A stretch of DNA of 60,446 nt from an uncultured virus (IMG/VR IMGVR_UViG_3300022921_000005) (taxonomy: Duplodnaviria > Heunggongvirae > Uroviricota > Caudoviricetes): IMG/VR virus record IMGVR_UViG_3300022921_000005; one strand, written 5' to 3'. A model generated the notes under the pieces. That model was given only the letters and a program-made list of their open reading frames with translations. It made no database searches and was not told where the DNA came from. Below are positions 484-47,640 of this stretch, piece after piece. Position 1 is the stretch's first letter, and each line of letters opens with the position of its first letter. Both the position numbers and the translations under genes were made by a program.

Positions 484-1452
484 CTATTTCTTTTTACCAA
501 GTTCTTTAGCGTCTGCGGTGGCCGCGGCTCCAACAGATGCTAAATGCGCTAATGATCCACCAAAGATATAACTGCCTACGTGCTTCAGTTCCATCCAAGG
601 ACATAACCAAACTTTCATACCCATTCTCTGTACATTATAGCAGAACATATAGTCTTCTGACAAGTACCTATTTGAATATTCTTTTGTATGAATTCCTGTA
701 GTTTTATCTGACAAAAATTCTACCACATCATCTCGTGATGCATCAGGATTCTGATCATAGAACGCATTGATTTCATTCATAAGATTCTGTGACTTGTCAT
801 CAATCAGCGCATCAAAATATGCCATGATCTCACGACTGCCATCGAAGTTAGCCGTTCGAACATGATCTGGGCGATACTTGAACTGAGGATATGCTTCATC
901 GTATTTGTGAAACACTTCTTTCTGAATCATCATGAAACCAGTGCCGCCTTCGAGTACCTGACATGGCTCGCCGATCTTAATCGCGCCATCTTTATCAGTG
1001 CGTAAAGGATTAAATACATAGTCGCCTACGAAGTTCTCAAGTACATTAGGATCTTCGTCAGCAACACCCTTATCGACTGCTCGCTTGATCTTTTCCCATG
1101 AGATAGTCTTCTTAGGATAAGGACCACAGAGAACGTGATAGTCTGGATTCTGACAAGACATACCTAACATCGCAACAACATCTTCAGCTTTGAAACCAAT
1201 GTCAGCATCAATAAACATCAAGTGAGTACAGTCCGAGCGCATGAATTCGTCTACACAGTAATTTCTTGCTCTCGTAATTAATGATTCATTGAACAAGAAA
1301 TAGAACTGAAGAGGAACTTGGTACTTAGCCAAGAGACCAGTTAGATCAGCAATAGACTTCGTGAACATACCAGCACACTGACCGCCATACATCGGAACAG
1401 CGAGAAACAGTTTACACTGTCTCAATTCTTCCATTTTAATTGTTAATTCCAT
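484..1452 (-). CDS. Conserved phage protein with GT-A (glycosyltransferase family 2-like) fold
   Basis: LFLAVPMYGG...ESLITRARN...HLMFIDADI (DxD)...GTGFMMI...YLSEDY.FC...LKHVG motifs. Confidence 0.7.
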   Translation of the reverse strand: MELTIKMEELRQCKLFLAVPMYGGQCAGMFTKSIADLTGLLAKYQVPLQFYFLFNESLITRARNYCVDEFMRSDCTHLMFIDADIGFKAEDVVAMLGMSCQNPDYHVLCGPYPKKTISWEKIKRAVDKGVADEDPNVLENFVGDYVFNPLRTDKDGAIKIGEPCQVLEGGTGFMMIQKEVFHKYDEAYPQFKYRPDHVRTANFDGSREIMAYFDALIDDKSQNLMNEINAFYDQNPDASRDDVVEFLSDKTTGIHTKEYSNRYLSEDYMFCYNVQRMGMKVWLCPWMELKHVGSYIFGGSLAHLASVGAAATADAKELGKKK

Positions 1453-5345: not shown

Positions 5346-5374
5346 ATAATAGCAGGTAAAAACTCGTTTGTCAA
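5346..5374 (-). promoter_or_regulatory. Sigma70-type (early/middle) promoter for gp47-gp46
   Basis: Minus strand TTGACA-17 nt-TATTAT with a TGn extension. Confidence 0.75.
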
Positions 5375-27256: not shown

Positions 27257-29920
27257 ATGCTTACAGTTGCTATCGTAGATACCCTTGGTCTCTGTTATGA
27301 CGGCTCAACACTTACAAAACGCGGTCTCGGTGGTTCTGAGTCTGCCGTCATTCTTATGTCTAGAGAGTTGTCAAAACTCGGATTTGACACATATGTGTTC
27401 AATGACTGTACAAGTGACGATGCTTCGCCAGGTATTTATGATAATGTAAAATATGAGCCTCTTTCAAACATTGAGAATTATAAACGCTTCGATGTATTTA
27501 TAGCATCCAGATCAGTAGTATCTTTTGCGCCGAATGAAATCAAAGAAAGATTTAAATGGTCAAGTGAACTGCCAAACCTTGAGAGAGTCGCGTTAGCATC
27601 TAGGCACAGAGTACTTTGGATGCATGATACATTCTGCGATGGTGATGATCTTATTGAAGACTTCGTGTTGCAAGGAAGAATTCATGAGATATTCACGCTG
27701 TCTGATTGGCACACATCATATGTAACGAACTGTGATCACGGTAAACGTAGAAACTATGAGATACTGAAACGACATGTATTTCAGACGCGCAATGGTATCC
27801 AATTGTATCACGACTTCGTAGATGTGTCAAAGAAAGATCCAAATCTTTTTGTATATAATGCTTCAGTTACAAAGGGTATGATTCCTCTCGTAGAGAAAGT
27901 ATGGCCTCTCGTGAAAGAAAAATTACCAGACGCTCGTTTGAAAGTCATCGGTGGTTATTATCGCTTTCGAACATCGCATGGACCAGATGAGCAAGAATTG
28001 AGATGGCGTGAGATGGTTGATGATCCTACTCATGCTTTCAATGATATCGAGTTCACTGGTATTATTTCTCAGAAAGAAATTGCAGACATATTAGCAGAAT
28101 CATCCTTCATGATATATCCATCTGCGTTTCCAGAGACGTTTGGCATCTCCACGCTTGAGTCGCTTGCGTATAATACACCACTGATTACATGTAAGTTCGG
28201 CGCTCTCGAAGAGACTGCAATTGATCTTGCTTGTTATAAGATACCATATCCTGTAGAGAAGAACTGGTCACTGCCGTGGCTGAATGAAGATGAGCAGTGT
28301 CGAATCTTTGCAGACGCGGTAATCAAAGCATATAATACACCTTATCTCCATCAACAAAAAATGTATGCGTGTAATCAAGTTAAAGATATTTGCACATGGG
28401 ATACTGTGGCACTGCAATGGAAACAGCATTTCTACAAACTATTAGGCGAGTTCTTACCGATCGAAGAATATCATCGAGTAACAGATATTAATAATCGAGT
28501 GCATAAAGTATTCGGTCGTAGATACCATAACTACGAAGAATCATCAGTAAGAAAGCAAACAGAAAAGTCAATTGTAATCATCACGACAGTGTATAACGCA
28601 GAGAACTATATTGACAAATGTATTCGTTCTGTTGCCGCACAAGATTATGACAATTATCGAATGATTATTATTAATGATGCATCAACTGATCGAACTGCCG
28701 AGGTGATTGAAAATACAATCGCTGAAACTGGACTCGAAAACGGTGAAGAAAGAGATGACATTCGCAGAATTTTTGAGGTCATTACTCGTGATCAAAATAT
28801 GGGAGCAGTCTGTAATCAAATTTCAACGATCAAATCTAGATGTTATTCGGATGATATTGTAATGATTCTGGATGGCGATGATTGGCTAGTCAATAATCCA
28901 AACATCTTCAATATGTATAATAATATGTATCATGAAGGCGCTGAATATACTTATGGAAGTTGTTGGTCACTCGTTGATAATATACCTCTGATTGCACAGC
29001 CTTATCCACCAGAAGTAAAAGCAAATAAATCATATCGTGATCACAAGTTTAACTGGAACTTTCCCTATCCTCATCTGAGAACGTTTGTTGGTCGTCTTGC
29101 ATTAAACTTAGATGAATCACTGTTTAAAGACGCATACGGCGAGTGGTATCGTGCAGGTGGAGACGTTGCGACATTCTACAACATAATAGAGCAGGCTGAT
29201 CCAGATAAGATTGTTTGCGTGTCAGATATTGTGTACATGTATAATGATACTAATCCTATTAACGATTATAAGGTGAATGGCGATCAGCAGACTGATACTG
29301 CTAACTTTATTTTAAAAAAAAGTGAAAAGACTATGAAGAAGATTTTGATTGCTATACCGACAGCAAAGTATATTGAACCAGAAACAATGAAATCTATCTA
29401 TGATCTTGAGGTGCCAGAAGGATACGAGACTGAGTTTCAATTCTTCTATGGATACAACATCGATCAAGTTCGTAATCTAATTGCACACTGGGTAGTGAAT
29501 GGCTATGATTATCTTTTCTCGGTAGACAGCGATATTATTTTTGAAACAGATACGCTGAAGAAAATGCTGGCACATGATGTCGATTATGTCTCTGGCATTT
29601 ATCGACAGAGACTACCGACACAGACATTGGAAGTATATGATCTCAGTCAGAAAAACATACCAATTGAAAATATTCCAGATAAGTCACTGATTGAAATAGG
29701 CGGCAGTGGTTTTGGTTGTGTTTTAGTTAAGAGAGAAGTATTTCTGAGCGTGGGCTATCCTTACTTTGTATATCACAGCGCATTGAATCATGCTGATACA
29801 TTCAGTGAAGATATGGACTTCTGTAAAAAGGCGAGAGAAAAAGGCCACAAACTACACTGTGATACTACTATAATCTGTGGCCACAAAGGAACGTCAGTGT
29901 ATGAGGTTACCAGAAATTAG
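27257..29920 (+). CDS. Three-domain glycosyltransferase (GT-B/GT4-like + GT2 + GT-A-like)
   Basis: GLGGSE...YPS.FPETFGIS.LE (GT4); TTVYNAENYI.KC..SV..Q.Y..IND.STD, LDGDDWL (GT2); IAIPT...VDSDI...GFGCVLVKREV...SED..FC (third domain). Confidence 0.9.
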   Translation: MLTVAIVDTLGLCYDGSTLTKRGLGGSESAVILMSRELSKLGFDTYVFNDCTSDDASPGIYDNVKYEPLSNIENYKRFDVFIASRSVVSFAPNEIKERFKWSSELPNLERVALASRHRVLWMHDTFCDGDDLIEDFVLQGRIHEIFTLSDWHTSYVTNCDHGKRRNYEILKRHVFQTRNGIQLYHDFVDVSKKDPNLFVYNASVTKGMIPLVEKVWPLVKEKLPDARLKVIGGYYRFRTSHGPDEQELRWREMVDDPTHAFNDIEFTGIISQKEIADILAESSFMIYPSAFPETFGISTLESLAYNTPLITCKFGALEETAIDLACYKIPYPVEKNWSLPWLNEDEQCRIFADAVIKAYNTPYLHQQKMYACNQVKDICTWDTVALQWKQHFYKLLGEFLPIEEYHRVTDINNRVHKVFGRRYHNYEESSVRKQTEKSIVIITTVYNAENYIDKCIRSVAAQDYDNYRMIIINDASTDRTAEVIENTIAETGLENGEERDDIRRIFEVITRDQNMGAVCNQISTIKSRCYSDDIVMILDGDDWLVNNPNIFNMYNNMYHEGAEYTYGSCWSLVDNIPLIAQPYPPEVKANKSYRDHKFNWNFPYPHLRTFVGRLALNLDESLFKDAYGEWYRAGGDVATFYNIIEQADPDKIVCVSDIVYMYNDTNPINDYKVNGDQQTDTANFILKKSEKTMKKILIAIPTAKYIEPETMKSIYDLEVPEGYETEFQFFYGYNIDQVRNLIAHWVVNGYDYLFSVDSDIIFETDTLKKMLAHDVDYVSGIYRQRLPTQTLEVYDLSQKNIPIENIPDKSLIEIGGSGFGCVLVKREVFLSVGYPYFVYHSALNHADTFSEDMDFCKKAREKGHKLHCDTTIICGHKGTSVYEVTRN

Positions 29921-30647
29921 AGAATCTAGGTGGCTCAACTTGTTGCATTCTGCTTCTCAATTTATGAATAGAATTTTTTCGAGTTCTTTGAATGTGTCTT
30001 ATTAAGTTAGACCTTAGATTGTTATTGCTTATATTCTGAACATAAGGTCTAAGCAAATCGAAATCGTAAGCAAGTAACTCATTCAGTTTGAGTTCTTTTT
30101 TATACAATAGTCTGACGTAATTCACCACGGATGCATCTTTGCTATCTATACCATACTTCAAACAATTATAAGGATTCATTGTTGTAGTGAATAGTATATC
30201 TGTTGTGAAGTTCATTTTTCTAGGCATATATCCTAACGTGATTTTAGAAAGAACACCTTTGTTTTTAGTGGGATAAAAATCAAACTTTTTGTAATTAATA
30301 ATGAATAATGATAGATCAATTCTACCCGCTATGTCATAATCTATCTGTTCATAGTCAGAATGATATCTGTTATTCTTAGAAAAAACTGCTTCTCTGCTCA
30401 CTACCATTGGATATTTTTCTATCTCGACGGGAATGTCATCAGATTTTATATTTAAGACAATTCCTTCAGATACAGCAAGAACAGGCTTTTTTATTTTTTT
30501 AGAATAATTGAAAGCATAGAATAGTGTTTTGTTTTTCGCAATAACATTGATAACATGATAGTTCCAGTCTGGCATATTTTTTTTAATTGAAGACACGGTC
30601 ATGTCAACCAAGCCATCTCCATAATTGAATATTAGAATATCAATCAT
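29907..30647 (-). CDS. Hypothetical protein, possibly divergent GT-A fold
   Basis: ILI.......TVSSI..NMPDW N-terminus, DLS.FIIN; co-located with GT genes; weak. Confidence 0.5.
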   Translation of the reverse strand: MIDILIFNYGDGLVDMTVSSIKKNMPDWNYHVINVIAKNKTLFYAFNYSKKIKKPVLAVSEGIVLNIKSDDIPVEIEKYPMVVSREAVFSKNNRYHSDYEQIDYDIAGRIDLSLFIINYKKFDFYPTKNKGVLSKITLGYMPRKMNFTTDILFTTTMNPYNCLKYGIDSKDASVVNYVRLLYKKELKLNELLAYDFDLLRPYVQNISNNNLRSNLIRHIQRTRKNSIHKLRSRMQQVEPPRFSNFW

Positions 30648-31578
30648 TGACTAGAGATTCCATTTGTACTTTAGTTGTCGCGACATGTGGGTAATCCATA
30701 TAATACTCAAAATACTCATTGATTTCCACTGCAATGTCGCTGAACTTAGAAAGCATACCGCTTGCTTTAGATGAGAATAATTTTTTCAATCTTGTTTCAT
30801 ACGTGTCGTTTTCACCGTAGTGTCCAAACTCTTTTACGATGATATTATCATATAAATGAGTGTACGTATAAACTCGATCTTCAACCTCTTTATCAAAAAG
30901 AAATACAGATTTTCCTTTCAGCGCGGATATCAAACCCATCTCTGAGTTTTTGCCGACCGCTACTACTTTAGCTTTTTCCATCACTTCATGTCCAGAGAAC
31001 TTACTTGAAATTACTCTGTCTCTACCGTACCGCTTTGTGACTTTCGTTTCTAATACTTCTGGTGTCAGAGGATGAAATTTAATCATCGCATTGTTTTCTT
31101 CAACGAATTTATCTACCTTGTCAAGATCAACAATGTCATCATAGATATTATTTCCTGGAAGAAATACTACCGCGTCTAGATTGGTGTCATCAAATTTTCT
31201 TCTTATTTTTCTCAAAGAATATTTGTCAACGTTATGTTCTAGAAGGTGATTGTATATTTTAATTCCTCTGTCATTTATTTCTGTGTTCTGAATGACATGA
31301 TCGATTAGTTCGGAACTGTGTCTCGCAGAAGCGCATCTCAACATAATAAACGTTGAAAGAACGTCAGTGTAAGTATAACCATGAACTTTAGGATAGTCTC
31401 TCATATCATACCATACATCGTATTCGACATTTGTTTGATATGGACCATTTTTAGGTATTTGAGATACGATATCTTTCAATTGCTGAGAGATATCGCATTG
31501 GGGAATATTACCAGATTTGAAAAAGTGAGACGATGCTACGCCGAAATTATCGTCAAGTGACATTTTACTCAGAGTCAT
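30640..31578 (-). CDS. Putative GT-B/capsule-polysaccharide-modification (KpsS/KpsC-like) protein
   Basis: VVFLPG.N...IKFHP...V....SEMGL..AL.GK.V pattern resembles the K.HP / NS..G.EAL..GK.V motif of KpsS-like proteins. Confidence 0.55.
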   Translation of the reverse strand: MTLSKMSLDDNFGVASSHFFKSGNIPQCDISQQLKDIVSQIPKNGPYQTNVEYDVWYDMRDYPKVHGYTYTDVLSTFIMLRCASARHSSELIDHVIQNTEINDRGIKIYNHLLEHNVDKYSLRKIRRKFDDTNLDAVVFLPGNNIYDDIVDLDKVDKFVEENNAMIKFHPLTPEVLETKVTKRYGRDRVISSKFSGHEVMEKAKVVAVGKNSEMGLISALKGKSVFLFDKEVEDRVYTYTHLYDNIIVKEFGHYGENDTYETRLKKLFSSKASGMLSKFSDIAVEINEYFEYYMDYPHVATTKVQMESLVND

Positions 31579-31792
31579 TATCTACCTCACCATTTTCCAA
31601 TTGTGTAATTTTATCAGTCAATTCTTCAATTTTGTATTCGAGCGTTTCAATAATATCTTCAAGTTCTTCACATCTTTCGGCGCTTTCTTTAAAATGCTCT
31701 ACGCAAATATCTAGTACACTTTCAAGTCTTCTTTCAAGCGAATCAAAATCTTTTTTATTGACGAAAGTTTCTAGTCTTTCTAATATATCCAT
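31565..31792 (-). CDS. Small coiled-coil protein
   Basis: Heptad pattern; GGAG RBS; overlaps next gene. Confidence 0.65.
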   Translation of the reverse strand: MDILERLETFVNKKDFDSLERRLESVLDICVEHFKESAERCEELEDIIETLEYKIEELTDKITQLENGEVDNDSE

Positions 31793-31828
31793 GATCTACT
31801 CCATTATAAAATTAGATACTTTTATTTA

Positions 31829-34800
31829 TCAAAGCTCCCATTCATTAGTTGTAGTATTATATGTCTGTTGCTTATCAGTGTCTATCACGGTATCAAAGAT
31901 AGTGTTTGTAATTCTAGAAGTATCGACACCAGTTACTGTTTCGGTGGCTCTACTTGTTCCTCTAGAAGTCAGCGTATCATTTGTAATAGCAGTATTTCTT
32001 GATGTTAAGAATGCTGTATTTCTTGATGTGCCTCTGGACGTAAGTGTATTTCTTGATGTGCCTCTGGACGTAAGTGTATCTTTAGAGGTTGTCATGATTG
32101 TTTGTGCAAACGTTTGAAACACAGTATTAAAGGTTGTAGTTCTAGATACTGTTGTCTGTGTCGGATTAGTCGTGTTGTAAATTGTATTTGTTGCAACAAA
32201 AAATGCAGTATTAAAAACAGTCAAATTCGTGACATTTGTATTTTCTTGGAACGTAGTGTTATTAGACTTTGTTGTCTGAGTAGTTTTATTTGTGTTGAAC
32301 GTAGTAGTTGTATCTGCTAGATATGACGTATTAAATACCGTGCTTGTTGTAACAACCGTTTGCTCTTGGAATGTTGTATTTCTGGATGTCAGCGTATTAA
32401 ACGAGGTATTAAAGGCAGTTGACGTATTAAATGTGGTTGTTTTGGACGTCTGCGTATTAAATGCAGTATTAAATGCAGTCGTTGTATTAAACGTGGTCGT
32501 TTTGGACGTCTGTGTATTGAATGCAGTTGATCTAGAAGTTGCTGTGTCTCTTGATGTTCCTCTAGAAGTTAACGTGGCGAATGTCGTGGTATACGCAGTC
32601 GTTGTATTGAACGTAGTTGTTTTTGACGTTTGAGTATTAAATGCAGTTGATCTAGACGTTGCCGTATTTTTGGTAGTGTTCTTACTTGTCAAAGTATTGA
32701 ACGATGTCACAAACGTAGTTGTTGTTTGAAATGCAGTTGATCTAGACGTTGCCGTATCGGTTTGTTTGCTCGTATTAAACGTAGTATTATATTGTGTTGC
32801 GAACGTAGTCACTGTATTAAACGTGGTCGTTCTAGACGTTGCCGTATCTTTATTAGTACTCTTAGTTGTATTTGCCTGAAAAGAAGTAGTAGTATTGTAC
32901 GATGTTAACGTCAATGTTAAGATAGTAGTAAGATCCGAGAATGTTGTGGTTATTGTTTCGTCGGTTTGCTTACTTGTGTTTTTACTATAGTTTGTCTGCT
33001 TACTTGTATTTCTCGACTTAGCAGTCAAGAAGGTAGTGTTAAAGGTTGTTGCAGTGTTGTAAGTAGTTGTAGTATTTTTTGACACAGGCACAAGAGTGTT
33101 TTTCTGTGTTTGAAAAACTGTTGATGTCTGCGTACTTTTAACTGTATTCTGCGATTTTGCGGTCAGGAACGTAGTACTAACCTGTTTCTGTGTTTCAAAC
33201 ACCGTTTGATACTGTGTTACGTAAGTGGTATCAATTTGTCCATAGTCGTAGAAAGTTTGCTTGGTTGTCACGAAAGTAGTCGATGTATTTTTACTTGTTT
33301 GCCTAAATGTGTTTTTAAGTCCAATTATTGTATTGTAAGTAGTCAATGTATTTCTAGAAGTATTGTAGTTGGTATCTTTCTGTGCGCCTACATTCGTTTG
33401 CTTCGTTGTTGATCTCGAAGTAGCTCTAGTTGTATTCGCGGCCTTCAATGTCTGTTTACTAGTGTTCGCTTGAAAATTCGTGATATAGGTCGTTTGAGTA
33501 GCAGTCTGTCTGCTCGTATTTTTAAGCGTTTGTCTTGTAGACTGATATGAAGTCAACGTTGATCTAGATTCAGTCGTATTTTTACTAGTTGATCGGGAGG
33601 TGTTCGCTTGAAAATTGGTTATGTAAGTAGTGGATACCTGATATACAGTTACAAAAGTAGTACTTGTTTGATATGTTGTATTTCTACTCGTAATCTCACT
33701 AAATGTAGTTGACGTATTTGTCTGTTTGCTTGTTCCTGTTTCACGCGACTTCGCAGTTAGGTACGTAGTATTAAACGTAGTCAACGTATTAAACGTGGTC
33801 GTTCTAGACGTTGCTGTATCTTTAGTCGTATTATAATTAGTCAGCTTTGACGTATTGAATGTTGTTGTCGTCTGAGTATTAAACGTGGTTGTCCTGCTTG
33901 TATCAGTCGATTTAGTAGTATTCTTACTCGTTAAAGTATTGAACGATGTCACAAACGTAGTCAACGTATTAAACGTGGTTGTTCTGGACGTTAACGTATC
34001 AAACGTGGTTGTTTTACTTGTGGCAGTGTCTCTTGATGTACCTCTAGAAGTCAGAGTATTGAATGAGGTATTAAAGGCAGTTGACGTATTAAATGTGGTT
34101 GTTCTGGACGTCAAAGTATCAAACGTGGTTGTTTTACTTGTGGCAGTGTCTCTTGATGTACCTCTAGAAGTGAGAGTATCAAAAGTTGTTGTTCTGCTTG
34201 TGGCAGTGTCTCTTGATGTTCCTCTAGAAGTGAGAGTATTAAATGATGTTACAATTGTAGTATCAGCAATTATATCAAATACTGTTGTTCTATTAGTAGA
34301 TTTTGTTTTTGTTGTCTGTGTTGCTTTGCTTGTATTGAACACAGTACTTGTGTCTGCAAGATAAGTTGTAAGAATCGTTGTCTCACCCACACCGACAACT
34401 GTAGTATTTCTGCTAGTCGAAGAAATATATGTTGTTTGTGTTTGTCTATTAGTGTTGAATACAGTATTCGTATTTGATTGATAGACAGTACTTCTTGATG
34501 TACTTTGAGTGAAGTTTGTGTTTTCTTGGAAATTAGTATCAAATACCGTTGTTGTATTGAAGGCAGTAACAAAAGAAGTTAATGTGTTGAACGCCGTATT
34601 AAATGCTGTTACAATAGTAGTGTCAAACGAAGTTAAGAATACAGTGGTCGTTTGCGTGTTGAACGAAGTTATAAATGCAGTTGTTGTTTCAAATACCGAT
34701 CCAGTTTGAAACGTAGTTGTTGTGTCAATATTAGTTGAATAAGAAGTAATAACGGTAGTATCTCTTCTCTTGCCGTGCATGTTAGAAAGACTGATAGGAC

Positions 34801-34927
34801 CACTAGGTATTCCTGCAAGCGCACGAACGTAACTTCTACCAAGACTGATCTCGGCAGTGGCTGAAGTACCAATCTCGATATTAATATCAGAGAGTGATAT
34901 TGGATTTCCTGAAGTAGGTAATGCCAT
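31829..34927 (-). CDS. Thr-rich 1032-aa fibre/adhesin with self-complementary repeat arms
   Basis: Short N-terminal module MALPTSGNPISLSDINIE...GPISLSNMHGK, then about 980 aa of alternating-Thr 10-aa units; GGAG RBS. Confidence 0.85.
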   Translation of the reverse strand: MALPTSGNPISLSDINIEIGTSATAEISLGRSYVRALAGIPSGPISLSNMHGKRRDTTVITSYSTNIDTTTTFQTGSVFETTTAFITSFNTQTTTVFLTSFDTTIVTAFNTAFNTLTSFVTAFNTTTVFDTNFQENTNFTQSTSRSTVYQSNTNTVFNTNRQTQTTYISSTSRNTTVVGVGETTILTTYLADTSTVFNTSKATQTTKTKSTNRTTVFDIIADTTIVTSFNTLTSRGTSRDTATSRTTTFDTLTSRGTSRDTATSKTTTFDTLTSRTTTFNTSTAFNTSFNTLTSRGTSRDTATSKTTTFDTLTSRTTTFNTLTTFVTSFNTLTSKNTTKSTDTSRTTTFNTQTTTTFNTSKLTNYNTTKDTATSRTTTFNTLTTFNTTYLTAKSRETGTSKQTNTSTTFSEITSRNTTYQTSTTFVTVYQVSTTYITNFQANTSRSTSKNTTESRSTLTSYQSTRQTLKNTSRQTATQTTYITNFQANTSKQTLKAANTTRATSRSTTKQTNVGAQKDTNYNTSRNTLTTYNTIIGLKNTFRQTSKNTSTTFVTTKQTFYDYGQIDTTYVTQYQTVFETQKQVSTTFLTAKSQNTVKSTQTSTVFQTQKNTLVPVSKNTTTTYNTATTFNTTFLTAKSRNTSKQTNYSKNTSKQTDETITTTFSDLTTILTLTLTSYNTTTSFQANTTKSTNKDTATSRTTTFNTVTTFATQYNTTFNTSKQTDTATSRSTAFQTTTTFVTSFNTLTSKNTTKNTATSRSTAFNTQTSKTTTFNTTTAYTTTFATLTSRGTSRDTATSRSTAFNTQTSKTTTFNTTTAFNTAFNTQTSKTTTFNTSTAFNTSFNTLTSRNTTFQEQTVVTTSTVFNTSYLADTTTTFNTNKTTQTTKSNNTTFQENTNVTNLTVFNTAFFVATNTIYNTTNPTQTTVSRTTTFNTVFQTFAQTIMTTSKDTLTSRGTSRNTLTSRGTSRNTAFLTSRNTAITNDTLTSRGTSRATETVTGVDTSRITNTIFDTVIDTDKQQTYNTTTNEWEL
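32015..34240. repeat. Degenerate 30-nt (10-codon) tandem units within the Thr-rich gene
   Basis: For example a 30-nt tandem at about 32015-32079, 34001-34051 identical to 34121-34171, and 32403-32441 identical to 34065-34103. Confidence 0.9.
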
Positions 34928-34956
34928 GTTAGAAAAATACTCCGTGAGTTATTCTT

Positions 34957-37626
<2,670 letters not shown>

Positions 37627-37670
37627 TTGTACTCTCTATAATTATTATACAATTAGTATTTATTGAAACT

Positions 37671-40600
37671 CTAACTCGTTATCTTTCCTCTGATACCTTT
37701 AGAACTATCAAATTCAAGATAGACACCGTGTTGTCCATCTGAGATCGCGGCTTCTGTATATCCTACGATTAATAGTTTATCGCCTATTGCATTCACTGAA
37801 GTACCGAAATCGTTTGCGCCTGTTCCAATCTGGAATCGTTTCCAAGTTCCATCTGACGGATCAAGGATACCTAAGAATATATCAAGAAGACCAGTCGTGA
37901 CTGCATTGTCTGCGAAGAAACCAGCAGTTTGACCTACGATTGCAATTCGACCATCTGGTAGAAGCGCACTATGATTACCGTTCTGAGAAACGAATTCAGT
38001 TGATTCAGAACCAGTCTGATATGCTGTTCCCCATACATCTGTTACATAGTTAAATTCAACTACACCGATATCTTGTCCGCCTTGGTTCGTAAATCCAGAG
38101 AATGCACCAGATGTAGTGAATGCTACTGCAAGTTTATTATTTCCTATATCATGAACACCAATACCGACATCATTAAAACCTGTACCAGTCTGATAGTAAT
38201 CTGTCGTGTGTGTTGTCATATCATGAATAGCAAGGAAGATATCATAACCACCTAGATTCGTATGTGTAGGATCTCCAAGATCACCTGTTGATCTTCCTAC
38301 AAATGCAATTTGACCATCTGCAAGTTCTGTGAGTGCATATACTTCTTCGTCTGAAGTTGATCCATTTTGAAAGTACATAAACATTCCAGTCGTTGGATTA
38401 ATATGAAGTAATAAGTAATCATATACGCCAGATGCTCCAGTATGCAATCTTCCTATATCTCCAGAAGTCACGCCGACAGGAACAATCATACCGCCGCTGT
38501 GTTCAATGATATCGTAGCCAAATACGTTTCCATCGTCAGCACTTCCATCACCAACTGTTGCTACTTGATAGAAAGTAAAGATTTCGTTGGTGAAGGCGTA
38601 ATCAACACCAGATGCCAACTGTTGCTTGTATTCATCGGAGTTTATATACATCTGAACATCATCTAGGTCAATTGATGCGGCCCAAAATTGGAATGTCCCG
38701 TTAGGACCAAATGAGCCATCGTATTCCTCAATTGTTGTGAAGATTTCAGAGGTTGCTGTTGTGCTTGTAGCAGTCAGACTACCAGTAGAGTCAGCAGGCG
38801 CACTGATAGATGATATAGTTGCTGAATTTAGAGATTCAGTTAGTGTGCTTGCTTCATACCACATTGCGGCACCTGGGTTACCGTTGATATGATAGTTGCC
38901 TGTGCCAAACTCTTGCTTCCATGATCTGAATAACATGCCATCAGAAGAACCGTACGAGTGACTGCTCTTGAATCCAACCGATACAATATTATCTTGTGTA
39001 GCATCATCAACTACACCATAAAGCATTTCTCTGCCCATGAATGAAATTGTATTCTGCCATTGCAGTGCGCCAGTCGAATCATATTGTACAATCAGGCCAT
39101 TCTCAGCGCCCATCATTCCTCTGCCATCAGCAGTCGTTTCACCGACAACATGAATTCTTCGATTTGTTCCAGTGACCATATTCCAGTTTGGATTCGCATA
39201 GTTTTCACAAACAACTGCATGAAGTTTACAGGTGTCTAATGTTCTAGCCCAAGATTGTCCTACGTTATATACGAAAGAACCTAACGTCTCGTCTACTTGA
39301 ACACTTAAAACGAAACCATCAGTCTCCTCTTCGCCGACAATCACATAATCAGCACCGTTACCTGATCCATCTGGATCATTTAAAAGACCAATATCATTCG
39401 CAGAACCGTTTGCGGATGCAGAGAAACCACCCAACCATTGAATCATTCTATTTGATGTACTGCCGATTTCTCCCATGCCATAACGAATCTTATTTGCTCC
39501 GTTGTCGCCTGCAAACAAGAATCTACCTTTTGTATCACCAGATACATCAGGTCGTAGTCTATTTACATTTAAATTTGCGCTAACATTGACTTCGTTGACA
39601 CTACCATCGAGATCAATTGAGGTGAATAGTGTTGATGTGCCGCTCTTAATTGAAAGCACAACATATTCAGTATCACCGTCTAGAGTAACAACACATCCAG
39701 TTGCATCTTCTGAATTTGATGTGCCGTATGCATTACCCCATGTTAATGTGCCATCGGGAGCAAACTTCAATAGTATAGCATCTGTGCTTCCTTGGCCAAT
39801 GTTTACTGTCGAACCACAGACGTAGATATTATCATTACTGTCAATTGCAATTTGATTTGCAATATCACTACCAGTTGATCCGCTATCAAATTTTCTTTGC
39901 CATACTTCTTCGAACTTATCATCGAATTTGTAAACAATGAAGAAACCTGTGTCATGTATACCGATAGCGTAGTAATTATTATTAGAATCGCGAACAACGT
40001 CTTTTAAATAAATTCCGTTCGAACCATCACGACAGTTTCTCAAGAAACCATGTACTTTAATATCTCTTTTTGTGACCAGTTCTGATTTTGTATAGCCAGA
40101 CAGCCATATTTTACCGTCAGATGCTTGAGTGATACCTGTCACATAGTCTTGACCTAGACCACCATATACAAAATGTTGTCTTCTTTCTGGATTATCAGCA
40201 TCTAAGAAAGTAATGAATATGTTTTCAGCGGCAGTGTTAGCAATAGGAAGATCCTCTACTGTGCCAACTAAACACTTTCTGCCGTCTTGTAGAATTGTCG
40301 AGTCATAGTAATATTCCTCGCCGCCAATCGTAAGTTCTTCAACACGCATAAACTGAGGACTACCGACATCATATTCTAGAATTCTTTTATCAGTTGCGAT
40401 GCCAGCAGGTTCTGTTGTGTTATATCGAGTAAGTACTCCATTATCAATATCATATTCAATGTAACCAGCAGTTAATTCGCCTTTTAATTGAAATGTATGA
40501 TTTGTCGAATCATAATCAAGATGTTCATAACCACCAAACGCATCATCGAGTTTGAAAGAATAAACACCAGCGCCTTCATATGTCGGACTTGCGCCTGCAG

Positions 40601-41861
40601 AAGTTCCACTCAGAAGAGTATAAAATTTTGTTGAACCTGAGTCGTATCTAAATCCGTGTACACGAACTTTATTTGATGTTGAGTTTGAAAAAACTGTGCC
40701 TTGGTCTGTCCATGTAGTACCATCATATACTTCACCGCTCACACCGCCTCTTGTAGAGTCTGAGTATAAGAAATAAATTTTTGAACCTACTGTTACTGCT
40801 TGACAGTCAGGAAAAACAGATAGACCAGATGCAATTGTTTCTGTTACAATATCACCTGGATCTGGTGGATCAGCACTTGGAAATTCCCATATCTGAAGAT
40901 CGTAGAGAGAAGAATTACTTTCATTCTTTACTACGACAGGAAAATAGAATTTAAATCCTAGTACATCGCCGCAACTCGCTCGAACAGGCCAGTTCTGTTG
41001 ATCACCCGAAGTATCATTGAAAACAAATACTGGATCGGCGAGATTATATGTTCCTATCGTTGATTGCGATGTAAAAGAAAGCGATGCATCACTATATGTT
41101 CTTGCGTACACATCCCAAAGAGAAGTGTTTGATGCGTTCTGTGCTAAGTAAAATGCATGATACTTATCAGATGTTCCTCTGATAATACCACCTGTCATAT
41201 AGTTTCTTGCGCCGACAGACGGAAGTGTAACATCATTGTGTGAGTTGTGCGCGCCACCAATCGATGGTGTATGAATTCTTGCTAATCTGCTTTGATATGC
41301 TGTACCAGCAGAAGAAACACGAGTACTAATCTGATAACCGTAAGATTTGTCTTCTGGATCAATGTATCCACCGCCAGACGTAGTTTCTCTGCCTTGCTCA
41401 TATCGTGTATAAAATGAAGGCAAGTGTTTGTGATATTGATAGTACTGCCAATCAGTGTCGCCTTGTTGTAGAAAAACTCTGTCCCAATAGAATGCATCAT
41501 CGTCAGCCGCATTTGCTCCTAAGTGCGCGAAGATGATCGCATCATCTTCAACCGCATTCGTAATGTCGTTTACACCTTCACCTACGTGTTCAATCGCTGA
41601 AGAATGATAATAGACATTCGCGCCATCGACTTCTTCATAGATCAGAGGTATTGTTCCATCAATTGTTAAGTAGGTGTTGACCTGCGGAATCGGTGTGTCC
41701 CATTTTAAAAATCTTACTCCACCGCCAGTCGTATCATTGCTTGCATTCACTGGGACATAAACGAACCAGTTGCCATCTCTATCAATATTGTTATTAATAG
41801 GCAGTGGCAAATACTCTGAAGTATTCGCAGTGTATTCATAAGTCTGATTAGCAATAGCCAT
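37671..41861 (-). CDS. Large beta-propeller-repeat virion protein
   Basis: Repeats of the type IAIDSNDNIYVCGST...G..DAILLKF..DG.L.W and GGYDIFL (SBBP-like blades). Confidence 0.7.
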   Translation of the reverse strand: MAIANQTYEYTANTSEYLPLPINNNIDRDGNWFVYVPVNASNDTTGGGVRFLKWDTPIPQVNTYLTIDGTIPLIYEEVDGANVYYHSSAIEHVGEGVNDITNAVEDDAIIFAHLGANAADDDAFYWDRVFLQQGDTDWQYYQYHKHLPSFYTRYEQGRETTSGGGYIDPEDKSYGYQISTRVSSAGTAYQSRLARIHTPSIGGAHNSHNDVTLPSVGARNYMTGGIIRGTSDKYHAFYLAQNASNTSLWDVYARTYSDASLSFTSQSTIGTYNLADPVFVFNDTSGDQQNWPVRASCGDVLGFKFYFPVVVKNESNSSLYDLQIWEFPSADPPDPGDIVTETIASGLSVFPDCQAVTVGSKIYFLYSDSTRGGVSGEVYDGTTWTDQGTVFSNSTSNKVRVHGFRYDSGSTKFYTLLSGTSAGASPTYEGAGVYSFKLDDAFGGYEHLDYDSTNHTFQLKGELTAGYIEYDIDNGVLTRYNTTEPAGIATDKRILEYDVGSPQFMRVEELTIGGEEYYYDSTILQDGRKCLVGTVEDLPIANTAAENIFITFLDADNPERRQHFVYGGLGQDYVTGITQASDGKIWLSGYTKSELVTKRDIKVHGFLRNCRDGSNGIYLKDVVRDSNNNYYAIGIHDTGFFIVYKFDDKFEEVWQRKFDSGSTGSDIANQIAIDSNDNIYVCGSTVNIGQGSTDAILLKFAPDGTLTWGNAYGTSNSEDATGCVVTLDGDTEYVVLSIKSGTSTLFTSIDLDGSVNEVNVSANLNVNRLRPDVSGDTKGRFLFAGDNGANKIRYGMGEIGSTSNRMIQWLGGFSASANGSANDIGLLNDPDGSGNGADYVIVGEEETDGFVLSVQVDETLGSFVYNVGQSWARTLDTCKLHAVVCENYANPNWNMVTGTNRRIHVVGETTADGRGMMGAENGLIVQYDSTGALQWQNTISFMGREMLYGVVDDATQDNIVSVGFKSSHSYGSSDGMLFRSWKQEFGTGNYHINGNPGAAMWYEASTLTESLNSATISSISAPADSTGSLTATSTTATSEIFTTIEEYDGSFGPNGTFQFWAASIDLDDVQMYINSDEYKQQLASGVDYAFTNEIFTFYQVATVGDGSADDGNVFGYDIIEHSGGMIVPVGVTSGDIGRLHTGASGVYDYLLLHINPTTGMFMYFQNGSTSDEEVYALTELADGQIAFVGRSTGDLGDPTHTNLGGYDIFLAIHDMTTHTTDYYQTGTGFNDVGIGVHDIGNNKLAVAFTTSGAFSGFTNQGGQDIGVVEFNYVTDVWGTAYQTGSESTEFVSQNGNHSALLPDGRIAIVGQTAGFFADNAVTTGLLDIFLGILDPSDGTWKRFQIGTGANDFGTSVNAIGDKLLIVGYTEAAISDGQHGVYLEFDSSKGIRGKITS

Positions 41862-42236: not shown

Positions 42237-43190
42237 TTAAACTCCTAAACGTGTTATTTCTATATATGCTGTATTAGCAAGCGATCCTGTAGAATCGCTA
42301 TTGTCAACATAAATTTCTAAGTAATCATCTGTTGTTAGATTATAAATCTCATCGAGTAACAATGTAGCAGATGGTCCAATTGTTGTCTGTTCTAAATTTG
42401 CAGATGCATTTTTCTGTAGAGAAATTGAATAACTATCATTGGATCCAGCATCACTTGTTGTCAGAGATGCTTTTACTCTATAATAGCCATCAACTTTAAC
42501 TGTAATTCTAGTGTCATTTACAGCAGTCCAATATAATGTTCCTAGAACGTCTGCGTTTTGATCATAGACAGTACCGTCATAAGAAATTGCTGTCGGCGTA
42601 GTTGTTAAATTGAAAGAATTCGTAATGTATGTTCTCGCACCAGAGAAAGCACTCCATGATGATATTCCAGTTCCTAAATTCTGTCCTACCTGTGTAATTT
42701 CTAAGAAACTAATTTCAGAGTCTATAGCACCTGCGGATGTCGATTCACTTGCGAATACTTCAACATAATCGCCTACAGCTAATTGCACAATGTCGTCAAA
42801 TACAATGAACTGATTACTTGCAATTGTATCAGATGAAATTACAATATTATTTCTTCTAATTGAAATTGTATATGAAGCACCTGTACCCGCCGTCGTTGTG
42901 AGTACTTGAACATTTAGACGATAGAAACCATTTTCTGTGATTGTGAATTTAGTTGGTTGACTGGGTGCCCAAAGTGTAGCAGTATCAAAGTTTGCCGATG
43001 ACCAAGGTATCGCTGTTGATGTCGATCCGAGACTATAGTCCGAAGATAATACAACTTTTGCACCTTTAAATGCTCGCTTTGTAGACCGCGTGATCACATC
43101 CCACTTCTCGCCGTCCCATTGCCAAACAGCCGCATTGTCGTCTGTGTATGTATCATTCACTGCTGGTGATGAGGGAAAATCTAATGCCAT
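42237..43190 (-). CDS. Fibre-associated protein with tandem C1q/TNF-like domains
   Basis: MALDFPSSP N-terminal module; two copies of FT..ENG.Y / ITV..DGYY...L..GDYVEVF / L...DYLEIY. Confidence 0.65.
   Translation of the reverse strand: MALDFPSSPAVNDTYTDDNAAVWQWDGEKWDVITRSTKRAFKGAKVVLSSDYSLGSTSTAIPWSSANFDTATLWAPSQPTKFTITENGFYRLNVQVLTTTAGTGASYTISIRRNNIVISSDTIASNQFIVFDDIVQLAVGDYVEVFASESTSAGAIDSEISFLEITQVGQNLGTGISSWSAFSGARTYITNSFNLTTTPTAISYDGTVYDQNADVLGTLYWTAVNDTRITVKVDGYYRVKASLTTSDAGSNDSYSISLQKNASANLEQTTIGPSATLLLDEIYNLTTDDYLEIYVDNSDSTGSLANTAYIEITRLGV

Positions 43191-43995: not shown

Positions 43996-47640
<3,645 letters not shown>

What the first reader, a model, noticed from the sequence alone, without database searches (positions are those of the whole stretch)
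31829..34927. A protein that is its own 'reverse complement': aromatic-to-basic pairing code defines a giant beta-hairpin
Seen in sequence: the 1032-aa protein is built of 10-aa alternating-Thr units with two key positions, each aromatic (A: F/Y) or basic (B: R/K). Examples are TLTSRGTSRD=BB, TATSRTTTFD=BA and TSTAFNTSFN=AA. Residues 231-350 read BB,BA,BB,BA,BA,AA,BB,BA,BA,AA,BB,BA. Residues 725-844 read BA,AA,BB,BA,BA,AA,BB,BA,BA,AA,BA,AA, the exact reversed and A/B-swapped string (24/24 positions). The same register i+j=1078 holds outside the regular repeats: F73-R1005, F85-R993, F89-R989, F101-R977, F109-R969, F113-R965, F119-R959, F123-R955, F129-K949, R145-F933, Y149-R929, R161-Y917, R173-F905, F197-K881, K201-F877, K209-Y869, R213-F865, F229-R849, R395-F683, F439-R639. 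The irregular motifs LTAKSR and FQANT face each other with mirrored spacings (49 and 46 aa in both arms). The register shifts by one near the centre (R525-F552, Y531-K546), around a turn at IIGLKNTF (G536, nt about 33320). Some positions are exceptions (F79-T999, F97-I981, Y189-N889). Inference: a single antiparallel beta-ribbon of about 465 residues per arm (order of 150 nm if extended), or an antiparallel dimer, registered by cross-strand cation-pi pairs much like base pairing in an RNA stem. I do not know of a described phage protein with this design.
Basis: partly seen in the sequence, partly recalled or inferred. Interest (0 to 1): 0.95.

Follow-up and report, generated by a model that had tools for sequence, protein, structure and literature searches.

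The report
Giant fold-back beta-hairpin phage fibre
A 1032-residue phage fibre protein has two halves that match when one is read backwards, aromatic residue opposite basic residue, so the chain most likely folds back on itself into one very long two-stranded ribbon, a fibre design I could not find described.

Summary
In the 1032-aa ORF (window 31829-34927, minus strand), aromatic-basic pairs peak sharply at i+j=1078. There are 67 such pairs among 69 coincidences of key residues. The next peaks reach 37 and 36, and no shuffle exceeded 48. There is no DNA palindrome.

A 60%-identical metagenome relative (1040 aa) keeps the code, with 68 of 70 pairs at i+j=1086. Eight pairs are swapped on both sides, and exchanging arms between the two proteins creates clashes.

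A motif scan of viral contigs found 22 more proteins with the same code (19 complete, 807-2106 aa). In two end-type groups the mirror sum stays at protein length plus a fixed number. Insertions and deletions come in equal-length pairs at mirrored places. Some members have a one-residue glycine apex, and one has a 215-aa globular insert at the turn. A cultured phage, Stenotrophomonas phage DLP_6, carries such a hairpin on a baseplate wedge protein.

Best reading: a fold-back two-stranded beta-ribbon stalk about 150 nm long on a conserved N-terminal adaptor.

No 3D evidence exists.

Earlier notes of this scan report the same design on other DNA. Eight lexical literature searches found no description.

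The parts
31829..34927 (-). Whole gene: 1032-aa Thr-rich mirror-coded fibre protein (P0001)
   Evidence: ORF and translation. The 1040-aa relative is in frame over its whole length. No Pfam or PHROG family matches the whole protein.
34766..34927 (-). N-terminal adaptor module, residues 1-54
   Evidence: Matches phrog_26817 at E 1.9e-8. Of the 150 best of 572 representative hits, all but about 7 match only the N-terminal end of the query, from about 55 up to about 190 residues, and carry many different C-terminal parts. It is 98% identical to the relative over the first 50 columns.
33335..34765 (-). N arm (outgoing strand), residues 55-531
   Evidence: Pairs with the C arm at i+j=1078 for residues 55-509 and at 1077 for 517-531. 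All 84 aromatic/basic residues of 56-510 sit at odd positions.
33293..33334 (-). Turn / distal tip, residues 532-545 (NTIIGLKNTFRQTS; apex K538|N539)
   Evidence: It is the centre of the local register 1077. The G-L-K-N motif corresponds to L-G-K-N at the apex of the relative's own register, 1088. All indels against the relative lie at about residues 513-565, around this turn.
31859..33292 (-). C arm (returning strand), residues 546-1023
   Evidence: Mirror partner of the N arm. 80 of 82 aromatic/basic residues of 567-1022 are at odd positions.
31829..31858 (-). C-terminal tail, residues 1024-1032 plus stop; in register it lies opposite residues 46-54 of the adaptor
   Evidence: i+j=1078 places the last residue opposite residue 46. 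The offset s-L=46 is the same in the relative. The C-terminal end is conserved: 79% identity in the last alignment window.
33230..33394 (-). Irregular internal loop plus tip region, residues 512-566; the most divergent part
   Evidence: 32% identity to the relative in alignment columns 501-550, against 72-98% in columns 1-250 at the N-terminal base and 62-79% in columns 851-1043 at the C-terminal base. The register shifts to 1077 here and to 1088 in the relative.
31565..31792 (-). 75-aa acidic helical ORF directly downstream, conserved in the relative's locus
   Evidence: The counterpart is L161 3389-3616. Only weak family hits. That it belongs to the system is inferred from position only.
30640..31578 (-). 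Linked gene X (312 aa, phrog_26179), KpsS/KpsC-like candidate glycosyltransferase
   Evidence: It lies just downstream of the mirror-coded gene in the window, L161, L200, L198, L230 and L225; in the window and L161 the 75-aa ORF lies between. PF05159 matches weakly in 2 of 5 members, best E 0.015. Atlas feature score is 0.95 to PF05159-named clusters; model TM is 0.60-0.66 to bacterial PF05159 proteins.
29907..30647 (-). Linked gene Y (246 aa), unknown family
   Evidence: It follows X in the window, L200, L198, L230 and L225. No Pfam or PDB match.

Best explanation
P0001 is a virion fibre of an uncultured T4-like myophage. Its shaft is most likely a single chain folded back on itself.

Proposed build:
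- Residues 1-54 form a widespread adaptor module that docks the fibre on the virion.
- Residues 55-531 run outward as one continuous beta strand.
- The chain turns at about residues 532-545 (G536-L-K-N539).
- Residues 546-1023 run back, antiparallel and in register with the outward strand, so the C-terminus ends beside the adaptor.

One face of this two-stranded ribbon carries a Thr ladder (T opposite T). At two of every five positions on that face, an aromatic residue in one strand faces Arg or Lys in the other. The irregular order of 'aromatic' and 'basic' along the arms works like a bar code that allows only one register, much as base pairing fixes an RNA stem. The repeat module BB-BA-BA-AA is complementary to itself, so arms can be lengthened or shortened by adding or removing the same module in both.

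Fully extended, about 477 residues per arm give a filament of order 150 nm. Its distal end is the turn, the most variable part, which in one class member (L200) carries a globular domain.

Shown: the mirror code, its statistics, co-variation of the arms, paired indels in the class, and the tail-module context.

Inferred: beta-ribbon geometry, cation-pi contacts, the length, the oligomeric state (monomer or a trimer of hairpins) and the role of the tip in host contact.
For: 1. Code and statistics. 67 of 69 key coincidences at i+j=1078 are aromatic:basic. The next peaks are 37 and 36, and the shuffle maxima are 21, 48 and 34.

2. Strand-like alternation without a phase slip. 84 of 84 key residues of the N arm and 80 of 82 of the C arm lie at odd positions. 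T:T makes up 113 of the 227 pairs on that face.

3. Not a DNA palindrome. Only three inverted repeats of 20-24 nt occur in the gene, against many direct repeats. GC skew is +0.27 and AT skew -0.26 in window 32001-34000, within the gene.

4. The relative L161 (1040 aa, 60% identical).
- Its own peak is at 1086 = L+46, with 68 of 70 pairs; the label-shuffle maximum is 47.
- All net indels lie around the centre.
- 47 pairs are kept, 8 are swapped on both sides, 5 are newly made on both sides and 4 are lost on both sides. 8 of 10 A<->B flips in the N arm have the complementary flip in the partner.
- Cognate arms give 66 and 67 pairs with 2 clashes each. Exchanged arms give 55 and 53 pairs with 10 and 11 clashes. 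In residues 231-400 the figures are 32 and 32 (1 and 0 clashes) against 20 and 22 (9 and 7 clashes).

5. The class.
- A scan for the unit T.TS[RK]TTTF[DN]T returned 63 stretches.
- 23 of 49 distinct Thr-rich ORFs there pass my mirror criteria. This compares with 0 of 37 Thr-rich ORFs found through a Thr skeleton alone.
- In one end-type group, lengths of 999-1781 aa all give s-L = 20-22. In another, lengths of 807-1086 aa give 15-16. A:B shares are as high as 140 of 141.
- Indels come in equal-length pairs at mirrored places. In L230 vs L243, +16 at 514-529 pairs with +16 at 1014-1029, and -16 at 685-700 with -16 at 834-849. In L198 vs L224 the pairs are +20/+20 and +6/+6. In L230 vs L222, +134 in each arm.

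6. Hairpin rather than dimer.
- The apex is a single Gly in L230, and 7-8 residues (YSRGNQS, YTRSGNQN) in L222 and L209.
- L200 has the same kind of N-terminal sequence motif as P0001 (by eye; its best PHROG family is a different one, phrog_30374), arms 65-525 and 742-1202, and a 215-aa non-repeat insert at the turn.
- The hairpins of L219, L233 and DLP_6 AAY80_265 sit inside larger proteins.

7. Fibre context.
- In the window the gene lies among collagen-like fibre genes, one with a Peptidase_S74 end, and near a gp37-like C-terminal protein.
- Class members lie beside tail-fibre and baseplate-wedge genes.
- In DLP_6 the hairpin is the C-terminal part of an annotated baseplate wedge subunit: 35 of 37 pairs, shuffle maximum 26.
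Against: - There is no structural evidence. AlphaFold2 gave mean pLDDT 25.6 for the whole protein and 28.5 for residues 440-640, with no hairpin.
- Neither face of the ribbon is a classical hydrophobic core. How a lone two-stranded ribbon of this length would be stable is therefore open.
- P0001 itself has only one alignable relative. The paired-indel evidence comes from other end-type groups that resemble P0001 only at 32-42% identity in low-complexity sequence.
- Compensatory 'swaps' may arise by replacement of whole repeat units, so they are not independent events.
- About 30 key residues per protein face a non-key residue.
- Virion association of P0001 is inferred from gene context only.
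Confidence: 0.78

Rival explanations
1. The chain folds back as proposed, but the functional unit is a trimer. Three hairpins would pack into a six-stranded rod like an enormously extended gp37 needle, rather than a free two-stranded ribbon. This differs from the best explanation only in assembly state.
For: Phage fibres are as a rule trimeric (general knowledge; PMC12143355 passages). The gp37 needle is a trimer whose chains go out and return: D10 is residues 811-881 plus 1010-1026, and D11 is residues 882-1009 (PMC6957217 passages). Neither ribbon face looks able to stand alone.
Against: No second consistent register appears that would mark a second neighbouring strand. Local second-best registers vary and carry clashes. 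There is no HxH motif and only one His. No trimerisation domain was recognised.
Confidence: 0.35
2. The two halves pair between molecules. The protein would form an antiparallel homodimer, or a higher assembly, with the N arm of one chain on the C arm of another and no intrachain turn.
For: The mirror code and matched arm lengths are equally satisfied by a two-fold symmetric antiparallel dimer.
Against: - Gly/Asn-rich apexes of 1-8 residues sit exactly on the symmetry centre in class members.
- GLKN in P0001 and LGKN in the relative lie at the apex of two different local registers.
- L200 has a globular insert at the centre.
- Some hairpins are embedded in proteins anchored at one end, such as the DLP_6 wedge protein, L219 and L233. 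A dimer would put their anchors at opposite ends.
Confidence: 0.07
3. It is a disordered, mucin-like, possibly O-glycosylated Thr/Ser-rich spacer. The mirror pattern would be a by-product of repeat evolution with no arm-arm contact.
For: The protein is 34% Thr and 11% Ser. AlphaFold2 sees no structure. A KpsS/KpsC-like candidate glycosyltransferase is linked to the gene in six loci. A glycosyltransferase-domain gene lies at 27257-29920.
Against: Tandem duplication makes direct repeats, not reversed and class-swapped ones. The sharp single peak (67 against 37), the strict two-residue phase over about 455 residues, the double swaps, the arm-exchange clashes and the paired indels at mirrored sites hundreds of residues apart all need a constraint between the arms. 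0 of 37 other Thr-rich repeat ORFs show the code. Glycosylation is compatible with the hairpin.
Confidence: 0.05
4. The mirror symmetry reflects a nucleic-acid palindrome, a DNA or mRNA hairpin, and not a protein feature.
For: Some codons of Phe and Lys are reverse complements of each other (TTT/AAA).
Against: No long inverted repeat exists in the gene: three of 20-24 nt only. Strong strand skew in window 32001-34000, within the gene. Thr codons are not self-complementary, yet T:T is the commonest pair. Arg and Lys, and Phe and Tyr, exchange freely between the two relatives while the class is kept.
Confidence: 0.01

Closest known systems
Needle (D10/D11) of the phage T4 long-tail-fibre tip protein gp37
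   Same: It is a phage fibre part in which each chain runs to the distal tip and returns, so N- and C-terminal segments lie together and the receptor-binding tip is at the turn. D10 is residues 811-881 plus 1010-1026 and D11 is residues 882-1009 (PMC6957217 passages).
   Different: The gp37 arms are about 60 residues, not about 477. It is a trimer held by seven iron ions on His motifs, whereas P0001 has one His. gp37 has no Thr ladder, no aromatic:basic code and no repeats. There is no sequence similarity: 0 PDB hits and 0 PHROG hits.
Fold-back antiparallel coiled-coil arms of SMC/Rad50 proteins and the helical hairpin of colicin Ia (recalled, no call)
   Same: One chain runs out, turns and pairs with itself antiparallel over tens of nanometres. 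This brings its two ends together, and the two arms must stay matched in length.
   Different: Those arms are alpha-helical with heptad packing. Here the pattern is a two-residue beta alternation with cross-strand pairs.
Cross-strand aromatic-cation pairs in model beta-hairpins, and single-layer beta-sheets such as Borrelia OspA (recalled; the listings show only that such peptide work exists)
   Same: Water-exposed two- or three-stranded sheets without a hydrophobic core. They are stabilised by beta-branched residues and cross-strand side-chain pairs.
   Different: Those have strands of 5-20 residues. Nothing approaches hundreds of residues, and none uses the pairs as a register code.
Beta-hairpin 'tentacles' of intramolecular and separate tail-fibre chaperones
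   Same: They are long polar two-stranded hairpins in phage fibre systems, up to about 88 Angstrom (PMC10579305 passages).
   Different: They are ten to twenty times shorter. They embrace another protein during folding and are not the fibre shaft. No mirror code is reported for them.
Mirror-coded Thr-rich fold-back fibres noted earlier in this scan (e1-5987439, e1-6077245, e1-5378795, e1-6063794)
   Same: The same design appears on other DNA: halves complementary in reverse, aromatic opposite basic (or Gln), a phage tail module, and relatives of many lengths.
   Different: Those are unpublished, unchecked AI notes. They share only 3 of 110 short words with P0001. P0001 has a different N-terminal adaptor (phrog_26817) and a strict Arg/Lys code.

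Membership tests
T4 gp37 needle-domain family | His-x-His motifs that bind iron along the needle | tested here: not met
   There is one His in 1032 residues. The role of iron and His in gp37 is taken from PMC6957217 passages.
T4 gp37 needle-domain family | Sequence similarity to gp37-type distal fibre proteins | tested here: not met
   0 PHROG families for the whole protein, 0 Pfam families and 0 PDB chains at E<=10.
T4 gp37 needle-domain family | Chain goes to the tip and returns (fold-back topology) | tested here: inconclusive
   The topology is strongly implied by the mirror code, co-variation and paired indels. No structure was obtained.
phrog_26817 N-terminal adaptor module | Profile match over the first 55 residues or so | tested here: met
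   Residues 1-55 match profile positions 1-53 at E 1.9e-8. The same module is found on five other proteins with different bodies. 572 representative hits.
Mirror-coded Thr-rich fold-back fibres (working class of this scan, not a published family) | A single i+j at which at least 85% of aromatic/basic coincidences are aromatic:basic and which far exceeds the second peak | tested here: met
   P0001 has 67 of 69 against a second peak of 37. The 22 other proteins range from 41 of 42 to 140 of 141.
Mirror-coded Thr-rich fold-back fibres (working class of this scan, not a published family) | Key residues and Thr on one face (two-residue alternation) in both arms | tested here: met
   84 of 84 and 80 of 82 key residues at odd positions. 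For class members, 109 of 118 up to 202 of 202.
Mirror-coded Thr-rich fold-back fibres (working class of this scan, not a published family) | Arms stay matched when length changes (constant s-L; paired indels) | tested here: met
   For P0001 and its relative, s-L = 46 in both and indels lie only at the centre. For the other end-type groups.
Collagen-like, triple beta-helix or coiled-coil phage fibres | Gly-X-Y repeats, or Pfam/PHROG fibre domains | tested here: not met
   The protein has no Pfam or PHROG hit, while its neighbours at 34957-37626 and 43996-47640 match Collagen and many fibre PHROGs.
Beta-solenoid with TxT faces (antifreeze-like; recalled) | Direct repeats of constant coil length that stack like on like | not tested
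   No explicit stacking test was run. A solenoid would not explain complementarity at a constant i+j, or paired indels hundreds of residues apart.

The most novel reading that the evidence does not exclude
A widespread, undescribed class of phage fibres is built on a protein-level pairing code. One chain of 800-2100 residues zips onto itself as a single two-stranded beta ribbon 125-290 nm long. The order of aromatic and cationic residues fixes the register the way base pairs fix an RNA stem. A repeat module complementary to itself lets evolution lengthen or shorten the stalk in matched steps. The turn serves as an exchangeable distal tip. The class spans several end types, reaches a cultured phage (DLP_6) and may be glycosylated by a linked KpsS-like enzyme.
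Probability: 0.6. Interest if true: 0.92.

Novelty: categorically new. Interest (0 to 1): 0.86.

Why it matters
If the reading holds, this is a new way to build a long thin protein rod. It needs no trimeric beta-helix, coiled coil or collagen. It is a single self-complementary chain whose register is written in a two-letter side-chain code.

- **Protein science.** It would be the longest beta-hairpin known by more than an order of magnitude. It would also be a natural example of designable, length-tunable beta pairing.
- **Phage biology.** It would explain a set of large, unannotated, low-complexity genes in the tail modules of aquatic T4-like phages. It would place their host-contact site at the turn rather than at the C-terminus.
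- **Annotation and structure prediction.** Pfam, PHROGs, HMMER searches and AlphaFold2 all fail on these proteins. A simple i+j score detects them.

The example in cultured phage DLP_6 makes the idea directly testable.

Tried and rejected
**Structure prediction**
- AlphaFold2 on the whole protein with the 2-sequence alignment A1 gave mean pLDDT 25.6, pTM 0.19 and no strands.
- AlphaFold2 on residues 440-640 with A4 gave pLDDT 28.5.
- Both are uninformative, so no fold search was run.
- Complex prediction on two arm segments was not available.

**Homologue searches that gave nothing useful**
- The search for homologous proteins on the whole protein and on residues 845-1032: no hit.
- The search of protein representatives: 572 hits, nearly all to the N-terminal adaptor only. 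The few hits to the repeats were unrelated eukaryotic tandem repeats.
- tblastn of the protein against GenBank phages matched only residues 1-59. Megablast of 28000-40000 found nothing.
- The search for related loci in viral contigs with the protein, with neighbour X and with alignment A1 returned only identical copies.
- Motif scans for the C-terminal and VVGVGETT motifs also returned only identical copies.
- Neither protein is in the clustered collection.
- The PDB sequence search had 0 hits.
- ESM Atlas gave unnamed viral clusters at 0.75-0.78, leads only.

**A scan that served as a negative control**
- The Thr skeleton T.T...T... x4 returned many Thr-rich proteins. 0 of 37 of them carry the code.

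**Reads and contigs**
- A contig in runs X20 and X22 (one study) joins 32507 to 32808, which would be a 100-codon in-frame loss in the C arm. It stops matching at 33810 (residue 373), 2-3 residues from the mirror of the inner edge.
- I do not use this as evidence. The joint lies in tandem repeats at under 95% likeness, the N-arm side has only 18 letters and fits two repeat copies, and assembly collapse cannot be excluded. Stretches without cover prove nothing.
- RNA-library contigs (X14) cover 27 of 30 bins. This does not show transcription.
- Among the 40 of 185 listed variant letters, the changes at key positions keep the class (Y481F, K689R, K829R). This is anecdotal.

**Cultured phages**
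- DLP_6 16-66 kb holds no mirror protein.
- The KVP40 region around its X homologue holds no adjacent fibre.
- tblastn of the C-terminal 70 aa of L230 and L198 against phages found no match.

**Other**
- No paralogue of the adaptor exists in the window.
- A DNA palindrome is rejected.

**Literature**
- Eight lexical searches and passages of five papers (PMC10579305, PMC6957217, PMC12143355, PMC13250141, PMC5349666) found no description of this design.
- Subscription journals and supplements were not seen.

Full report
**What is there.** The window is part of an uncultured T4-like myophage.
- It encodes a gp23-like major head protein, portal, sheath, terminase, SbcCD-like nuclease, a carbamoyltransferase and a 2OG-Fe(II) oxygenase.
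- The head protein is 62-69% identical to those of Stenotrophomonas phage DLP_6, Methylophilales phage Melnitz, Pelagibacter phage Mosig and Synechococcus phages.
- The DNA occurs in salt-marsh, estuary and marine runs.
- The ORF at 31829-34927 (minus strand) encodes 1032 residues, 34% Thr.
- It lies in a block of fibre genes. These include two collagen-like proteins, one ending in a Peptidase_S74 chaperone domain; a protein with a gp37-like C-terminal part; and several large unknowns.

**Check of the observation.** I scored aromatic (F/Y/W) against basic (R/K) for every i+j.
- The maximum is 67 pairs at 1078. The next peaks are 37 at 1118 and 36 at 1038.
- At 1078 there are 69 coincidences of key residues, of which 67 are aromatic:basic.
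- 2000 residue shuffles never exceeded 21.
- 2000 shuffles of the A/B labels on fixed positions gave mean 35 and maximum 48.
- Shuffling 10-aa units in all ten phases gave at most 34.
- The register is 1078 in each 40-aa window from 60 to 519. It changes to 1077 for four pairs at 517-531.
- The side peaks at +/-40 arise because the super-repeat BB-BA-BA-AA is its own reversed complement.
- Simple tandem repeats in unrelated proteins can also give such peaks. The weight therefore lies on the irregular regions, where aromatic-rich stretches near the N-terminus face basic-rich stretches near the C-terminus.
- No other ORF of the window behaves like this.

**It is a protein-level feature.**
- The gene has many direct repeats but only three inverted repeats of 20-24 nt.
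- Base skews are strong in window 32001-34000, which lies within the gene.
- All 84 key residues of the N arm and 80 of 82 of the C arm sit at odd positions. That face is 53% Thr, with T opposite T in 113 of 227 pairs.
- The other face is Ser, Thr, Asn, Gln, Ala, Leu, Val and Asp, and its commonest pair is N:S.
- An unbroken two-residue phase over about 455 residues is what a continuous beta strand gives.

**Relatives of P0001.**
- Sequence searches fail on the repeats. They show only that residues 1-55 are a widespread adaptor (phrog_26817) fused to many different bodies.
- The metagenome scan found one true relative, L161 229-3351: 1040 aa and 60% identical.
- Its own peak is 68 of 70 at 1086, again protein length plus 46.
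- It uses mostly Lys and Tyr where P0001 uses Arg and Phe.
- The eight extra residues lie around the centre.
- Across N-arm positions 56-510, 47 pairs are conserved, 8 are swapped on both sides, 5 arise on both sides and 4 are lost on both sides. 8 of 10 class flips in the N arm are matched by the opposite flip in the partner.
- Pairing the N arm of one protein with the C arm of the other lowers the pairs from 66 and 67 to 55 and 53. It raises like-with-like clashes from 2 and 2 to 10 and 11. Almost all of this effect lies in the rewritten middle, residues 231-400.
- The flanking genes are much better conserved than the middle of the fibre.

**A class of such proteins.**
- I back-translated the repeat unit T.TS[RK]TTTF[DN]T and scanned IMG/VR. 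The scan returned 63 stretches.
- Among 49 distinct Thr-rich ORFs (at least 300 aa, at least 25% Thr) in them, 23 pass strict mirror criteria. One of these is a copy of P0001.
- Among 37 Thr-rich ORFs recovered by a Thr-only skeleton, none passes.
- With L161, this makes 24 distinct proteins, 21 of them complete.
- They fall into groups by their ends:

| Group | N-terminus | C-terminus | Lengths (aa) | s-L |
|---|---|---|---|---|
| first | M[TA]IKV... | ...YWDGSQWTE | 999-1781 | 20-22 |
| second | MA[IL][YF][VI]ND... | ...YWDGS.WS.. | 807-1086 | 15-16 |

- A:B shares run from 41 of 42 to 140 of 141.
- Pairwise alignments show indels in equal-length pairs at mirrored sites, some exactly mirrored. 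In L230 vs L243, +16 at 514-529 pairs with +16 at 1014-1029, and -16 at 685-700 with -16 at 834-849. The remaining odd indels lie next to the centre.
- Over the 21 complete proteins, the pairs are F:R 876, Y:R 310, F:K 260 and Y:K 207. Arms span 376-867 residues.
- These proteins also sit beside tail-fibre and baseplate genes.

**Hairpin or dimer.** The class evidence favours an intrachain turn.
- In L230 the pairs run up to a single Gly at the symmetry centre. In L222 and L209 they run up to 7-8 residues containing G-N.
- In P0001 and its relative, the apexes of two different local registers (1077 and 1088) both fall on a G/L/K/N motif.
- L200 has an N-terminal motif like P0001's (by eye; its PHROG match is a different family, phrog_30374). 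It carries a 215-residue non-repeat insert exactly at the turn.
- In L219, L233 and the DLP_6 protein, the hairpin is only one part of a larger protein.

**A cultured example.** I followed the linked gene X to Stenotrophomonas phage DLP_6 and scanned its late region.
- AAY80_265, annotated 'baseplate wedge subunit protein' (1288 aa), has a mirror-coded C-terminal part from about residue 711 onward (pairs at 711-960 facing 989-1238). It has 35 of 37 pairs at i+j=1949, against a shuffle maximum of 26, and a turn near TNPGLS.
- The passages of the DLP6 paper that I searched never use the word threonine and do not mention this feature (PMC5349666).

**How it most likely works.** The adaptor (residues 1-54) docks the protein. 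Residues 55-531 go out and residues 546-1023 come back. The last residues end beside the adaptor, opposite residues 46-54 in register. The Thr ladder and the aromatic:cation pairs hold the strands together and fix the register. The turn region is the most variable part, at 32% identity, and is the distal end. The length of order 150 nm, the cation-pi chemistry, the oligomeric state and any receptor contact are inferences.

**What is known.**
- The nearest described thing is the gp37 needle of T4, where each chain goes to the tip and returns (PMC6957217 passages). P0001 fails that family's defining features.
- Alpha-helical fold-back arms (SMC, Rad50, colicin Ia; recalled) are the functional analogy.
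- A tail-fibre structure atlas (PMC12143355 passages) and the phiKZ atlas (PMC13250141 passages) mention nothing like it.
- Eight lexical searches found no description.
- Earlier notes of this scan describe the same design on other DNA. I treated them as leads and re-derived the class independently.

**Limits.**
- There is no structure.
- P0001 has only one alignable relative.
- The similarity between P0001 and the other end-type groups is low-complexity similarity: 32-42% identity, E 1e-8 to 6e-4. Common descent of the stalks is likely but not proven.
- The contig joint that looks like a paired deletion cannot be told from repeat collapse.

Noticed in passing
window 29907-31578 (-); L200 757-2528; L198 913-2750; L230 3175-4735; L225 6297-7842; L161 3603-3962: Two genes are conserved downstream of mirror-coded fibre genes of different end types. 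X is about 300 aa (phrog_26179) and Y is about 240 aa. X looks KpsS/KpsC-like: PF05159 is weak in 2 of 5 members (E 0.015), the Atlas feature score is 0.95 and model TM is 0.60-0.66 to PF05159 proteins. This suggests the Thr-rich fibre may be glycosylated. Y has no family.
   Followed up: partly
window 31565-31792 (-); L161 3389-3616: A 75-aa, very acidic, helical ORF lies between the fibre gene and X and is conserved in the relative's locus. By size and charge it recalls the small fibre-assembly chaperone gp57A of T4. That resemblance is recalled and was not tested. Only weak PHROG and Pfam hits were found.
   Followed up: partly
KU682439.2 151407-155273 (L253 11407-15273): Cultured Stenotrophomonas phage DLP_6 AAY80_265, annotated 'baseplate wedge subunit protein', carries a mirror-coded Thr-rich hairpin from about residue 711 onward (pairs at 711-960 facing 989-1238). 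It has 35 of 37 pairs at i+j=1949.
   Followed up: yes
L200 2729-6334 (-): A 1202-aa protein has an N-terminal motif like P0001's, mirror-coded arms and a 215-aa non-repeat insert at the turn (residues 526-741). The insert has no Pfam or PHROG match and is a candidate distal binding domain.
   Followed up: partly
window 27257-29920 (+), 484-1452 (-), 5371-7119 (-): The window holds a set of sugar-related genes. An 887-aa protein, the only large plus-strand gene nearby, has a glycosyltransferase part (phrog_2170) and a phrog_1574 end. There is a second phrog_1574 protein and a Nol-like carbamoyltransferase.
   Followed up: no
window 34957-37626, 42237-43190, 43996-47640 (-): There are two long collagen-like fibre proteins with GFTGSxGD repeats. 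The first ends in a Peptidase_S74 chaperone domain and contains a duplicated non-collagen insert. It shares the N-terminal motif MA(A)LDFPS.P..ND.Y with the 317-aa protein at 42237-43190.
   Followed up: no
window 37671-41861 (-): A 1396-aa protein in the fibre block has no PHROG hit at E<=0.01 (Pfam was not run on it) and no mirror code.
   Followed up: no
window 32508-32807 and 33811-34175: In estuary runs X20 and X22, a contig of a 91-96% identical variant skips 300 nt of the C arm and stops matching at the mirrored point of the N arm. This is either a paired deletion or repeat collapse in assembly.
   Followed up: partly
P0002, P0003, P0092 (representative-search hits): Unrelated eukaryotic tandem-repeat proteins also give high aromatic:basic peaks at one i+j, because each short unit holds one aromatic and one basic residue. 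The score needs a second-peak or irregular-region control.
   Followed up: yes
MZ447858.1 47833-48345 (L188 4001-4513): In Vibrio phage BUCT194 (an N4-like schitovirus), the same N-terminal adaptor heads a 170-aa hypothetical protein directly after the annotated tail fibre gene.
   Followed up: no
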